This document shows positions 58,928-60,283 of a stretch of DNA of 64,000 bases, in pieces. The DNA lies in the IMG/VR virus record IMGVR_UViG_3300036670_000209, positions 39,040-103,039 of that record; one strand, written 5' to 3'. The position numbers and the translations under genes are program-made. This DNA comes from a virus. The notes beneath the pieces were generated by a model. The model saw only the letters and a list, made by a program, of their open reading frames with translations. It had not been told where the DNA came from and made no database searches. Numbering within the stretch: position 1 is the stretch's first letter; each line of letters starts with the position of its first letter.

Positions 58928-59326
58928 TTATACGTATAAATGTGGTTTTTGCTGTCGACGCTGTGTGATTCTATGCAAAATTATGTCTCGTGCTGCTGGG
59001 GTTTCCTGCCAATCACCATAAAATATAGTGGGAAATCCATCAAAGGTTAAGACTCTGCTGGGGTCAGTTTTATACCCCCTGCTGGTCATTTCATCCATGA
59101 TCCTCACCAGTCGCTGCCGTACATAGTGCAGTTTGTTATAGAAAAATGTTACATGCCCTGCATTGAGTGTGAATAATTGCGGAACCCCTGCCAGAACTGC
59201 TGCCTGATCTCGTGCTTTGAGTGAACGACGTAAAGCTGCTGGTATCATGGTTATTTCACGATATTCAGCTATTAAATGCAGACGATGTAACTCAGATGGG
59301 CTCATGCCAGCGTTTATTCTTGTCAT
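58928..59326 (-). CDS. denV: Pyrimidine-dimer DNA glycosylase / endonuclease V
   Basis: MTRIN, HL.AEYREI, F.L..GHV.FFYNKL, EM..RG; promoter TTGACA-N17-TACAAT at 59332-59360. Confidence 0.9.
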   Translation of the reverse strand: MTRINAGMSPSELHRLHLIAEYREITMIPAALRRSLKARDQAAVLAGVPQLFTLNAGHVTFFYNKLHYVRQRLVRIMDEMTSRGYKTDPSRVLTFDGFPTIFYGDWQETPAARDIILHRITQRRQQKPHLYV

Positions 59327-59409
59327 GCGTAATTGTACAATAACTAAATTTTATTGTCAAACCACTTGTAAATGCGCATTGACTGTGTAACAATACACTG
59401 GTAGATAGA

Positions 59410-59870
59410 TTATTACTTACCCACTTGTTTGATTAGCGCTGGCTAATTCCCATTGAGTCTGCGTTGAAAGTTACACGCCGTCAGAACTTGGGTGGGGTAC
59501 GTGAGTGACCAACGTCAGGTCACAAAAGATAGCAGCTCTGTGAAAAAGATACAACTGCTGACTCAGACGATTTCGCCATTCAGGGATCGTATGGGTACCG
59601 CTAGTAGACAATGCTAGAGTAGGGGGTACCGGCTAACCGCCTCCGTCGTTTGTAAACGAATCTCTTTTGGAATGGTATGTAAAAGAACTCAGATGAGGGA
59701 AAATCATATTTTTGCCTGACCCAGGCAAATTATGACTGAATCTAGATGAATAGCTATGTTCAATACATGTTTAAGTCCGTGAAGTTTATATTGATCATGT
59801 TGTATAGGATCGGATTAAAAATGCTTCGAAGCGCAGCTGAAGAAGCAGATGAGTTTATCTCATCTCAGTG
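59410..59870 (+). ncRNA. Candidate large structured non-coding RNA
   Basis: No credible ORF; about 10 nested stems and a complementary loop pair; strand and ends are inferred. Confidence 0.45.
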
Positions 59871-59971
59871 TATATACTAAGCTGATATAAAATCGTTGTT
59901 ATAAATGCCATGCCACGATCGTGAGATTCAGAATTATTATTGGTTTGGTAACTGGTTAGCATAAGTAAGGT

Positions 59972-60283
59972 ATGACTAATTTTTTCATATGGATGCAACG
60001 GGATCAGGGATGGAAATCCATGCTGGCACTGGTGTATGCAATGATATGTATATTTGATTTTGTGGTGGTTCCTATTTGGATAGGCGCTAGCCACACGAGG
60101 TTGGATCTGGCACTGATTAGGGATTCGACTATACCATTACAAATACAATTGGAGCTGATACGTGTGGTTTATCAGCAGCACCAGCCCTTCACTCTTCAGG
60201 GTGGTGGGTTGTTTCATCTAGCATTTGGTGCTTTGCTCACTGGCAGCGCTCTGAGTAAATCCAAAGATAAATCCACTGATTAA
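59972..60283 (+). CDS. Holin-like membrane protein
   Basis: Two hydrophobic segments, basic C-terminus; AAGG RBS. Confidence 0.55.
   Translation: MTNFFIWMQRDQGWKSMLALVYAMICIFDFVVVPIWIGASHTRLDLALIRDSTIPLQIQLELIRVVYQQHQPFTLQGGGLFHLAFGALLTGSALSKSKDKSTD

What the first reader, a model, noticed from the sequence alone, without database searches (positions are those of the whole stretch)
59410..59870. Candidate large structured ncRNA with a kissing-loop or pseudoknot
Seen in the only long ORF-free gap, at the strand switch: stems ATTAGC/GCTAAT (59432-59447), CCCAT/ATGGG (59449/59591) enclosing TGAGTC/GACTCA (59454/59560), GTGACC/GGTCAC (59505-59523), AGCAG/CTGCT (59531-59559), ACGATTTC/GGGATCGT (59567-59590), TCGTTT/AAACGA (59646-59659), TCTTTT/AAAAGA (59663-59686), TCATA..TTTGCCTG/CAGGCAAA.TATGA (59704-59735) and AGATGAG/CTCATCT (59847-59865). 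The loop GCCATTC (59575-59581) is complementary to the loop GAATGGT (59670-59676). G-U pairs favour the plus strand; a TTGACT at 59379 has only a weak -10. I could not match it to tRNA, tmRNA, RNase P or group I/II intron cores. A replication origin is the alternative.
Basis: partly seen in the sequence, partly recalled or inferred. Interest (0 to 1): 0.75.

Follow-up and report, generated by a model that had tools for sequence, protein, structure and literature searches.

The report
Knotted twin-box phage RNA, relocated variant
The gene-free gap encodes a real, roughly 450-base, pseudoknotted non-coding RNA of a large family found in uncultured giant T4-like phages; the family is only partly catalogued, its function is unknown, and this copy is a divergent variant sitting at an unusual genome position behind its own promoter.

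Summary

- **Covariation:** on 44 diverse homologs, 73 modelled pairs are 88.8% paired (shuffles 75.6%). 53 pairs show compensatory changes; covariation score 0.36 against 0.16, reached by 0 of 500 shuffles.
- **Strand:** G-U pairs outnumber A-C 302 to 43, which fixes the + strand.
seven of ten stems and the loop-loop contact (59576-81 with 59670-75) are supported. CCCAT/ATGGG is replaced by a local CCCA/TGGG. TGAGTC/GACTCA, TCTTTT/AAAAGA and the outer TCATA/TATGA are not established.
- **New here:** a second pseudoknot, and a 7-nt word present twice (59691-97, 59744-50) that changes in step across the family, with no partner found.
- **Rfam:** no hit for this window. In the largest sister class the 5' third is Polynucleobacter-1 (RF01718, an orphan motif from 2010).
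- **This copy:** it belongs to a three-member subclass, lies between denV and a small membrane-protein gene rather than behind the usual GIY-YIG gene, and has a sigma-70-like promoter.

This scan has met the family before on other DNA. Function is unknown; I favour a trans-acting RNA that presents two identical pairing words.

The parts
59379..59407 (+). Sigma-70-like promoter of the RNA (inferred): TTGACT (59379-84), 17-nt spacer, TAGATA (59402-07). It predicts a start near 59412-59415, 5-8 nt before the first helix.
   Evidence: Sequence reading. The two other subclass members have equivalents at the same distance: TTGACT-N16-TATAAT in L221 and ATGACT-N17-CATACT in L115. The consensus scanner did not list it because its -10 is weak. 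No transcript data.
59412..59866 (+). The whole non-coding RNA, about 450 nt. Both ends are inferred.
   Evidence: nhmmer alignment to relatives spans 59434-59881 with L115 and 59420-59759 with L116/L117/L120. Alignments A1 and A2. Strand set by G-U 302 against A-C 43.
59420..59496 (+). 5' domain. P2 is 59420-23 with 59493-96. P3 is the hairpin 59431-37 with 59442-48. P4 is 59449-52 with 59489-92. P5 is the hairpin 59461-64 with 59475-78.
   Evidence: helices 1-4. Every pair of P2, P3 and P4 shows changes on both sides; P2 and P4 are each 96% paired. Rfam RF01718 does not recognise this domain.
59505..59523 (+). P6 hairpin GTGACC/GGTCAC with the conserved 7-nt loop AACNUNA.
   Evidence: helix 5: 4 of 5 pairs with double changes, 86% paired.
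59531..59559 (+). P7 long hairpin (59531-35 with 59555-59, and 59539-41 with 59551-53) holding the conserved A-rich loop GAAAAAGA.
   Evidence: helices 6 and 7: 6 of 7 pairs with double changes.
59567..59590 (+). P8 hairpin ACGATTTC/GGGATCGT. Its loop (59575-82) carries the 5' strand of the kissing interaction.
   Evidence: helix 8: 93% paired, 6 pairs with double changes. Two conserved U-G pairs.
59576..59581 (+). Pseudoknot 1, 5' strand (CCATTC). It pairs with 59670-59675 (GAATGG).
   Evidence: helix 9: 89.6% paired, 5 of 6 pairs with double changes. The three subclass members carry three different complementary words.
59670..59675 (+). Pseudoknot 1, 3' strand (GAATGG).
   Evidence: As for the 5' strand.
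59600..59604 (+). Pseudoknot 2, 5' strand (GCTAG). It pairs with 59633-59637 (CTAAC) inside the invariant loop; 4 of 5 pairs form in the window.
   Evidence: helix 10: 94% paired. GUUGA/UCAAC in the main class, GUCGU/ACGAC in the Polynucleobacter-1 class, and AG/CU swapped for GA/UC between the window and L115.
59625..59643 (+). Invariant block GGTACCGG-NN-R-ACCGCCTC, the most conserved part of the family. Helix H7 (59622-26 with 59640-44) closes it.
   Evidence: Invariant columns in A2. Used as a pattern, it found 120 IMG/VR stretches, of which 119 match the RNA profile. In cellular genomes, 0 of 120 pattern hits match. The outermost H7 pair covaries, G-C 27 and A-U 11.
59616..59665 (+). P10, AGAG (59616-19) with CTCT (59662-65). 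It closes a three-way junction that holds H7 and the P11 hairpin (59647-50 with 59655-58).
   Evidence: helices 11 and 13. The outer P10 pair is U-A 18, A-U 17, G-C 3. All four P11 pairs covary. The P11 loop is a GNRA tetraloop (GAAA, GUAA, GCAA) in most relatives but UGUA in the window.
59691..59697 (+). Twin box 1 (AGATGAG), preceded by ACTC.
   Evidence: The highest mutual information in the alignment is between equivalent positions of the two boxes, and the letters are the same rather than complementary: A/A 53 with G/G 50, and A/A 59 with G/G 45. The words are identical in 103 of 108 sequences, with at least 14 different words.
59704..59735 (+). P13 hairpin between the boxes: TTTGCCTG/CAGGCAAA (59711-18 with 59722-29), plus the outer TCATA/TATGA.
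   Evidence: helix 14: 97.7% paired, 3 pairs with double changes. The outer part is paired in only 49.5% of cells.
59744..59750 (+). Twin box 2 (AGATGAA), preceded by ATCT. It matches box 1 at 6 of 7 positions, the only such mismatch in a well-aligned member.
59823..59865 (+). 3' extension. P14 is GCTTC/GAAGC (59823-27 with 59842-46), with a conserved loop (GAGC..AAGCGAA in relatives). The terminal hairpin P15 is AGATGAG/CTCATCT (59847-53 with 59859-65). P15 may be a terminator, but no U run follows it in the window.
   Evidence: Compensatory versions in relatives, read by eye from A1. P14 is GCTC/GAGC (L115), GTGAT/ATCAC (L117) and TTGAT/ATCAA (L116). P15 is GTTGAGC/GCTCAAC (L115) and AGATTAGC/GCTAATCT (L116, L117).
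58928..59326 (-). Flanking gene denV (pyrimidine-dimer DNA glycosylase), divergent from the RNA. Not part of the element.
   Evidence: Pfam PF03013, E 4.8e-16.
59972..60283 (+). Flanking gene for a 103-aa protein of unknown function, read by eye as a small membrane protein. Downstream on the same strand. Not part of the element.
   Evidence: No Pfam or PHROG family. 234 homologs in metagenomes.

Best explanation
Window 59412-59866 (+) is a gene for a stable, highly folded non-coding RNA of about 450 nt. It is a divergent member of a large family carried by uncultured giant T4-like phages.

**Shown**
- An invariant 19-nt block (59625-43) lies at the centre.
- Two copies of one 7-nt word (59691-97 and 59744-50) flank a conserved hairpin. 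They stay identical to each other while differing between phages.
- No complementary partner for the word exists inside the RNA.

**Inferred**
- In this subclass the RNA is its own transcription unit, read by host RNA polymerase from a sigma-70-like, early-type promoter.

**Proposed mechanism (inference, about 0.3)**
- The knotted core is a rigid scaffold or a protein-binding or catalytic platform.
- It displays the two single-stranded words so that both base-pair with the same kind of external nucleic acid: two identical sites, or the two strands of a palindrome.
- A phage-specific partner that co-evolves with the RNA would explain why the two copies must change together.

The confidence of 0.85 refers to identity: a real structured RNA gene of this family on the + strand.
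For: **Homology**
- Nucleotide matches in relatives whose DNA ligase is only 39-63% identical.
- 119 of 120 IMG/VR pattern hits match the profile at E 1e-10 to 1e-95.

**Structure**
- 88.8% of cells paired, 53 of 73 pairs with double changes, covariation score 0.360 against 0.157 (0 of 500 shuffles), and slid controls at or below 0.10.

**Strand**
- G-U 302 against A-C 43.

**Not coding**
- 9-18 stop codons of all three kinds in every frame.
- No paralog elsewhere in the genome fragment.

**Twin boxes**
- Identical words in 103 of 108 sequences, with at least 14 different words.
- The highest mutual information in the alignment is box to box, and no Watson-Crick-type partner column exists from -225 to +275 nt around the invariant block.

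**Own promoter**
- -35/-10 pairs sit at the same distance in all three subclass members.

**Independence from the GIY-YIG gene**
- The gene is directly upstream at most other loci (88 copies among 127 contexts).
- It is absent from the 103-kb fragment here.
Against: - No transcript evidence of any kind.
- Folding energy alone is only z about -2.5 and is equal on both strands.
- The window's -10 box is weak (3 of 6), and no U run follows the terminal hairpin.
- The external-partner idea has no positive evidence.
  - The complement of the word is not enriched in the genome fragment.
  - No site with conserved flanks changes in step across G000, G001 and G067.
  - No site pairs well with both extended boxes.
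  - Those records are only 29%, 29% and 12% complete.
- In the window the two words differ at their seventh base.
Confidence: 0.85

Rival explanations
1. The RNA works mainly through protein, as a scaffold, sponge or decoy. The invariant block and the two words would be binding sites for a conserved phage or host protein, possibly a dimer, rather than pairing sites for nucleic acid.
For: - A 19-nt block that is invariant across subclasses is typical of a protein or tertiary contact site.
- Two identical sites flanking a hairpin would suit a dimeric binder.
- No nucleic-acid partner was found.
Against: - A protein that tolerates at least 14 different words, including ATGGGAA and ACGAAAT, would not force the two copies to stay identical. 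Independent drift would then be expected, yet 103 of 108 are identical.
- No protein gene is linked to the RNA across all subclasses.
Confidence: 0.2
2. The RNA is a ribozyme or a self-processing RNA. The knotted core would be a catalytic centre, and the twin boxes two equivalent substrate sites, cut or joined so that the roughly 53-nt hairpin segment is released or circularised.
For: - Its size, two pseudoknots, GNRA tetraloops in most members, an A-rich conserved loop and an invariant core resemble large ribozymes.
- Two identical sites would be read by one active site.
Against: - No match to any ribozyme or intron family of Rfam 15, even at E<=10.
- No internal guide sequence complementary to the boxes.
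- No biochemical data.
Confidence: 0.12
3. The twin boxes are realignment sites for a polymerase that copies the segment between them repeatedly. This would resemble the repeated template ends of telomerase RNA or of the ncRNAs of defence reverse transcriptases.
For: - Identity of two direct repeats bounding a template is exactly what template jumping needs. It would explain change in step without any complementary partner.
- A tandem-repeat mechanism called analogous to telomerase is described for the DRT10 ncRNA in the abstract of bioRxiv 10.64898/2026.06.29.735271, as listed.
Against: - No reverse transcriptase stood out among the gene families flanking the RNA, only part of which were annotated.
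- The unit varies from 43 to 74 nt and is not a multiple of three. Only 30 of 108 units have a stop-free frame when concatenated, so no repeat ORF is encoded.
- The unit is mostly a stable hairpin, a poor template.
Confidence: 0.08
4. It is not a free-standing RNA but a cis-acting element. It could be a 5' leader regulating the downstream 103-aa gene, a 3' UTR or stabiliser, or a DNA-level element such as a replication origin at the strand switch.
For: - It lies between divergent genes at a change of GC skew.
- The 103-aa gene follows on the same strand.
- In most relatives the element directly follows the GIY-YIG gene. Weinberg et al. 2010 scored Polynucleobacter-1 as possibly cis-regulatory (PMC2864571).
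Against: - Downstream genes are convergent at most loci, and the neighbours differ in the window, L115 and L221. No gene is therefore consistently downstream.
- A T4-late-like TATAAAT (59900-06) lies between the RNA and the 103-aa gene.
- Compensatory changes with a strong G-U excess on one strand are selection on RNA, not DNA.
- No iterons were found, and the box word clusters nowhere outside the RNA.
Confidence: 0.05

Closest known systems
Polynucleobacter-1 RNA motif (Rfam RF01718; Weinberg et al. 2010, Genome Biol 11:R31, PMC2864571)
   Same: - In the largest sister class the 141-nt Rfam model matches at 64-120 bits, just upstream of the same invariant block and twin boxes (L131, L153, L130, L118, L178).
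- The 2010 supplement already noted that the motif lies downstream of one gene family with a cyanophage homolog, and that no purified phage carried it. That agrees with the GIY-YIG neighbour and with the absence from GenBank phages here.
   Different: - RF01718 covers only the first third of the RNA, and only in one class.
- The window and the other classes give no hit even at E<=10.
- Their 5' domain has a different helix layout (P2-P6).
- The shared part (kissing loop, second pseudoknot, invariant block, twin boxes, 3' hairpins) is not in Rfam.
- The window copy is not next to the usual gene.
GOLLD and ROOL: large ornate RNAs, often phage-borne, function unknown
   Same: Large, multi-domain, pseudoknotted, found mostly in metagenomes, and without a known job. 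GOLLD and ROOL were shown by cryo-EM to form RNA-only assemblies (abstract of bioRxiv 10.1101/2024.12.08.627333). The phage association of GOLLD and ROOL is from my own knowledge.
   Different: - No sequence or structure match: Rfam holds both families and nothing scored.
- This RNA is smaller (about 450 nt) and has the twin-box feature.
- Multimer formation is untested here.
HEARO / omega RNA of IscB: an RNA encoded beside the nuclease it guides
   Same: At most loci of the family a compact nuclease gene (GIY-YIG, Pfam PF19835, 142 aa) sits directly upstream on the same strand.
   Different: - Here, and in L115 and L221, no such gene is adjacent, and none is in the 103-kb fragment.
- The variable words are 7 nt and duplicated, not one long guide.
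- No target was found.
- The link elsewhere may be no more than conserved gene order (gp46-like, GIY-YIG, RNA, baseplate genes).
Telomerase RNA and the ncRNAs of defence reverse transcriptases (DRT10)
   Same: A short word repeated in direct orientation on either side of a segment, kept identical. In those systems this lets the product realign on the template (DRT10 abstract; telomerase from general knowledge).
   Different: No reverse transcriptase is linked, the segment is a conserved hairpin, and no repeat product is known. This is an analogy of form only.

Membership tests
Polynucleobacter-1 (Rfam RF01718) | Scores at or above the family's gathering threshold (37 bits) against the 141-position covariance model. 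| tested here: not met
   No match in the window at gathering score or at E<=10 over 59200-60100. Its closest relative L115 and class representatives L116, L117, L120 and L133 also give none at E<=10. Sister-class loci score 64-120 bits.
Polynucleobacter-1 (Rfam RF01718) | Lies downstream of the gene family noted in 2010, which is probably the GIY-YIG gene seen here. | tested here: not met
   The upstream neighbour is divergent denV. No homolog of the GIY-YIG protein is in the 103-kb record, but the record is only about 29% complete.
Extended twin-box phage RNA family (uncatalogued; defined by the shared 3' two-thirds) | Invariant block GGTACCGG-NN-R-ACCGCCTC closed by helix GGGGG/CCTCC. | tested here: met
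   Present at 59625-43, with H7 at 59622-26 and 59640-44.
Extended twin-box phage RNA family (uncatalogued; defined by the shared 3' two-thirds) | Kissing-loop pseudoknot between the P8 loop and the loop that follows P10. | tested here: met
   CCATTC (59576-81) with GAATGG (59670-75). It covaries across the family (helix 9).
Extended twin-box phage RNA family (uncatalogued; defined by the shared 3' two-thirds) | Second pseudoknot between the variable bases of the invariant loop and the strand upstream of H7. | tested here: met
   59600-04 with 59633-37; 4 of 5 pairs form, with compensatory differences from L115 and the main class (helix 10).
Extended twin-box phage RNA family (uncatalogued; defined by the shared 3' two-thirds) | The same 7-nt word twice, after ACTC and after ATCT, flanking a conserved hairpin. 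| tested here: met
   AGATGAG at 59691-97 and AGATGAA at 59744-50, 53 nt apart around hairpin 59704-35. Six of seven letters are identical, where the family norm is seven of seven.
Extended twin-box phage RNA family (uncatalogued; defined by the shared 3' two-thirds) | Profile match over the whole core. | tested here: met
   nhmmer profile of the core: window copy scores 275 bits, E 2e-83, over profile positions 4-347 of 349. The window is one of the six sequences the profile was built from, so this is partly circular. The independent evidence is the pairwise nhmmer matches.
Known large RNAs (RNase P, tmRNA, group I and II introns, 6S, GOLLD, ROOL, HEARO, OLE, raiA) | Match to the family's covariance model. 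| tested here: not met
   No Rfam 15 match at gathering score or at E<=10 apart from one chance snoRNA hit. No tRNA or tmRNA by ARAGORN.
Phage replication origin | Iterons, an AT-rich unwinding region, or DNA-level (strand-symmetric) conservation. | tested here: not met
   No repeat family beyond short two-copy matches. Conservation is of base pairs, with G-U on one strand only. Origin activity itself cannot be tested with these tools.

The most novel reading that the evidence does not exclude
The twin-box RNA is a new kind of phage riboregulator or ribonucleoprotein core. Its two identical, fast-evolving 7-nt words would act as paired guides, or as polymerase realignment sites, recognising a phage-specific nucleic acid. 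That is a programmable recognition principle not described for any known RNA class. The relocated copy here, with its own promoter, would show that the principle works without the neighbouring GIY-YIG nuclease.
Probability: 0.2. Interest if true: 0.9.

Novelty: new variant of a known kind. Interest (0 to 1): 0.62.

Why it matters
Large, intricately folded RNAs conserved across many genomes have almost always turned out to do something fundamental, and few remain unexplained. This family occurs in well over a hundred uncultured giant T4-like phages, yet only a third of it, in one subclass, is catalogued.

The window adds three things.
- **Wider family.** A subclass that the Rfam model cannot see, so the family is wider than the database suggests.
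- **Independence from the nuclease gene.** This copy is detached from the GIY-YIG gene and appears to have its own promoter. That argues the RNA does not need to be co-transcribed with, or encoded next to, that gene.
- **A tighter constraint on function.** Two subclass relatives carry very different twin-box words (ATGGGAA, ACGAAAT). Whatever reads the boxes must read sequence, and must read both copies alike.

Tried and rejected
**Hidden gene or recoded gene in the gap.** Rejected: 9-18 stops of all three kinds in every frame.

**Decayed paralog.** A weak tblastx match to a 99-aa ORF at G000:3085-3384 rests on one 17-nt near-identity, and one of its two segments is out of frame. I treat it as chance.

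**Known RNA families.** No Rfam match at gathering score or at E<=10, and nothing from ARAGORN.

**Homologs next to orthologs of the flanking genes.**
- Loci around denV, the 103-aa gene and the ligase gene showed no similarity to the gap. The element sits elsewhere in those genomes.
- Searching the whole records found it.

**Closer relatives by protein search.** The nearest are only 64-65% identical.

**Cultured phages.** No blastn match in GenBank phages for three different queries.

**Cellular genomes.** These are chance hits in GC-rich genomes.

**Partner of the twin boxes.**
- No complementary column inside the RNA.
- No enrichment or clustering of the complement in G000.
- No site with conserved flanks that changes in step among G000, G001 and G067.
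- No site that pairs with both extended boxes.
- All of this is limited by records that are 12-29% complete.

**Repeat-encoded ORF, as in DRT2-type systems.** Rejected: the unit is 43-74 nt, not in threes, and mostly closed by stops.

The complementarity is conserved, but shuffles do as well. Left open.

**A three-way-junction helix TGAGT/ACTCA (59502-06 with 59561-65).** Rejected: 43% paired.

**Canonical locus genes** (gp46-like, GIY-YIG, baseplate) in G000, G001 and G067: none present. Whether these phages also hold the usual locus elsewhere cannot be told.

Full report
**Setting**

The window is the last 64 kb of a 103-kb IMG/VR virus record that CheckV rates about 29% complete. Relatives found through its DNA ligase are phage genomes of 320-357 kb. 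The gene content is T4-like:
- clamp loader;
- ATP-dependent DNA ligase and denV.

The finding lies in a 645-nt gap (59327-59971). On one side is denV (58928-59326, minus strand, Pfam PF03013). On the other is a 103-aa ORF of no known family (59972-60283, plus strand).

**Checking the observation**

I re-indexed the sequence base by base.

On this sequence alone the case is weak:
- The 461-nt stretch folds with z = -2.47 on the plus strand and -2.62 on the minus strand.
- 150-nt windows give only -0.4 to -2.6.

The gap is not a hidden gene. All six frames carry 9-18 stops of all three kinds, and a faint tblastx match elsewhere in the genome is chance. No Rfam family matches at gathering score or at E<=10, and there is no tRNA or tmRNA.

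**Finding relatives**

Loci around orthologs of the flanking genes showed no similarity. That is because the element lies elsewhere in those genomes.

Searching the whole records of relatives with the gap sequence gave clear matches:
- G001: E 1.8e-25
- G009: E 2.4e-8
- G018: E 4.4e-8

nhmmer extended these to 320-450 nt.

The alignment exposed an invariant block, GGTACCGG-NN-R-ACCGCCTC, at window 59625-43. Of these, 119 match a profile of the core at E 1e-10 to 1e-95.

The same pattern in 596 Gb of bacterial and archaeal genomes gave 120 hits, and none matches the profile. GenBank phages hold no blastn match. As far as sampled, the element belongs to uncultured phages.

**Structure**

I placed 73 pairs in 14 helices on 44 sequences that are less than 95% identical to one another (A2). 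The counting tool gave:

| Measure | Observed | Control |
|---|---|---|
| Cells paired | 88.8% | 75.6% in shuffles |
| Pairs with changes on both sides | 53 of 73 | 36.9 in shuffles |
| Covariation score | 0.360 | 0.157 in shuffles (0 of 500 reach it) |
| Covariation score, partner slid 1-3 columns | - | 0.04-0.10 |

G-U pairs number 302 against 43 A-C, so the plus strand is the RNA.

In window coordinates the fold is:

| Element | 5' strand | 3' strand |
|---|---|---|
| P2 | 59420-23 | 59493-96 |
| P3 | 59431-37 | 59442-48 |
| P4 | 59449-52 | 59489-92 |
| P5 | 59461-64 | 59475-78 |
| P6 | 59505-10 | 59518-23 |
| P7 | 59531-35 and 59539-41 | 59555-59 and 59551-53 |
| P8 | 59567-74 | 59583-90 |
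| P10 | 59616-19 | 59662-65 |
| H7 | 59622-26 | 59640-44 |
| P11 | 59647-50 | 59655-58 |
| P13 | 59711-18 | 59722-29 |
| P14 | 59823-27 | 59842-46 |
| P15 | 59847-53 | 59859-65 |

P10 closes a junction that holds H7 and P11. P14 and P15 rest on compensatory versions read by eye in relatives.

There are two pseudoknots.
It is 89.6% paired, and five of six pairs change on both sides. The three members of the window's subclass carry three different complementary words: CCATTC/GAATGG, CTGTA/TACAG and CCGTAT/ATACGG.
- **A contact that is new here**, 59600-04 with the variable bases 59633-37 of the invariant loop. It is 94% paired. It reads GUUGA/UCAAC in the main class and GUCGU/ACGAC in the other large class, and AG/CU is swapped for GA/UC between the window and L115.

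- **CCCAT/ATGGG** is 54% paired and does not follow changes in CCCA. CCCA pairs locally with TGGG at 96%.
- **TCTTTT/AAAAGA** is 46% paired, and its 5' arm overlaps the covarying P10.
- **TGAGTC/GACTCA** has a conserved complementary core (79.5% paired), but 213 of 500 shuffles do as well. It stays open as a possible third pseudoknot.
- **The outer TCATA/TATGA of the hairpin at 59704-35** is paired in only 49.5% of alignment cells.

**Twin boxes**

The strongest mutual information in the alignment is not between complementary columns. It is between equivalent positions of two direct copies of a word, 53 nt apart in the window. The counts are A/A 53 with G/G 50 at one position and A/A 59 with G/G 45 at another.

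- The 7-nt words are identical in 103 of 108 distinct sequences.
- They take at least 14 forms, among them AGATAAT, GGATAAT, AGATGAT, GGATGAA, GCATAAT, ATGGGAA and ACGAAAT.
- Box 1 always follows ACTC and box 2 follows ATCT. Two or three bases further upstream also agree between the copies.
- The window has AGATGAG (59691-97) and AGATGAA (59744-50).
- No column from -225 to +275 around the invariant block covaries with them in a Watson-Crick sense. The boxes therefore have no partner inside the RNA.

**Relation to what is known**

A lead from earlier notes of this scan pointed to Rfam Polynucleobacter-1, and I tested it.
- In the largest class the model RF01718 matches at 64-120 bits, just upstream of the shared core (L131, L153, L130, L118, L178).
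- The window, its relative L115 and representatives of two other classes give nothing, even at E<=10.

Weinberg et al. 2010 described the motif from 16 examples. They placed it downstream of one gene family with a cyanophage homolog, and found it in no purified phage (PMC2864571). No other paper in the library names it.

So the catalogued motif is the 5' third of one class of a larger RNA. The shared two-thirds is uncatalogued, and the window's 5' domain is a different version.

**Context**

- Among 127 contexts of the element, 88 copies of a 142-aa GIY-YIG gene (PF19835) lie upstream on the same strand, in most cases as the nearest gene.
- That gene is preceded by a Rad50/gp46-like gene and followed by convergent genes, including a T4-baseplate-like one.
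- The window, L115 and L221 form a small subclass with other neighbours.
- None of the canonical locus genes is present in their records, which are 103, 115 and 47 kb and 12-29% complete. Each record holds one copy of the RNA.
- All three have a -35/-10 pair just upstream of P2: TTGACT-N17-TAGATA in the window, TTGACT-N16-TATAAT in L221 and ATGACT-N17-CATACT in L115.

In this subclass the RNA therefore looks like a separate transcription unit read by host polymerase. This is inference. No expression data could be obtained.

**How it may work**

What is shown is a conserved, rigid, doubly knotted fold with an invariant centre. Two single-stranded copies of one word must stay alike while differing between phages.

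Selection for identity between two sites that drift freely in sequence is hard to explain by a protein. It is easy to explain if both are read by base pairing with the same kind of partner. It is also explained if they serve as realignment points for a polymerase.

I favour display of two pairing words to an external nucleic acid (about 0.3). Behind it I rank a protein scaffold or sponge (0.2), a ribozyme with two equivalent substrate sites (0.12) and a template with repeated ends (0.08).

Tests for a partner were negative, but in very incomplete genomes. The repeat unit encodes no endless reading frame. A cis-regulatory or origin role is unlikely, because neighbours differ and selection is on RNA pairs.

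**Verdict**

- It is not a wholly new family. It is a divergent, relocated variant of a phage RNA family that is partly catalogued as Polynucleobacter-1.
- This scan has met the family many times on other DNA.
- Its function remains open.

Noticed in passing
window 59332-59360 (-): A near-consensus sigma-70 promoter, TTGACA-N17-TACAAT (11 of 12), ends 5 nt before the denV start codon at 59326. The denV mRNA would therefore be leaderless or nearly so, unless the match is chance.
   Followed up: no
window 59900-59907 (+): TATAAATG, one base from the T4 late-promoter consensus TATAAATA, lies 65 nt upstream of the 103-aa gene. That gene probably has its own late promoter, separate from the RNA.
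   Followed up: no
window 59846-59865 (+): A third copy of CAGATGAG forms the 5' arm of the terminal hairpin. Its 3' arm CTCATCT is complementary to both twin boxes, so alternative pairings are possible in this phage. The match is not kept in relatives: L115 and L221 have unrelated hairpin arms.
   Followed up: partly
window 59746-59880 (+): A 44-aa ORF starts at the ATG inside twin box 2 and runs through the 3' hairpins. Much of the family has words without ATG (such as AGATAAT and GGATAAT), so it is not conserved and is probably not a gene.
   Followed up: partly
L178:3911-5240: One phage contig that carries the RNA also encodes a permuted tmRNA (92.5 bits) and a tRNA about 3-4 kb upstream of it.
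   Followed up: no
window 59972-60283 (+): The 103-aa protein has 234 homologs of 45-67% identity in aquatic metagenomes but no Pfam or PHROG family. I read it by eye as a small membrane protein. Its relatives sit in quite different gene neighbourhoods.
   Followed up: partly
family-wide; window 59686-59690 and 59739-59743: The likeness of the two boxes extends upstream. Two or three variable bases plus an A agree between the copies. Then comes a fixed pyrimidine triplet that always differs, CUC before box 1 and UCU before box 2. A GGG in a partner could pair with both by wobble; no such site was found.
   Followed up: partly
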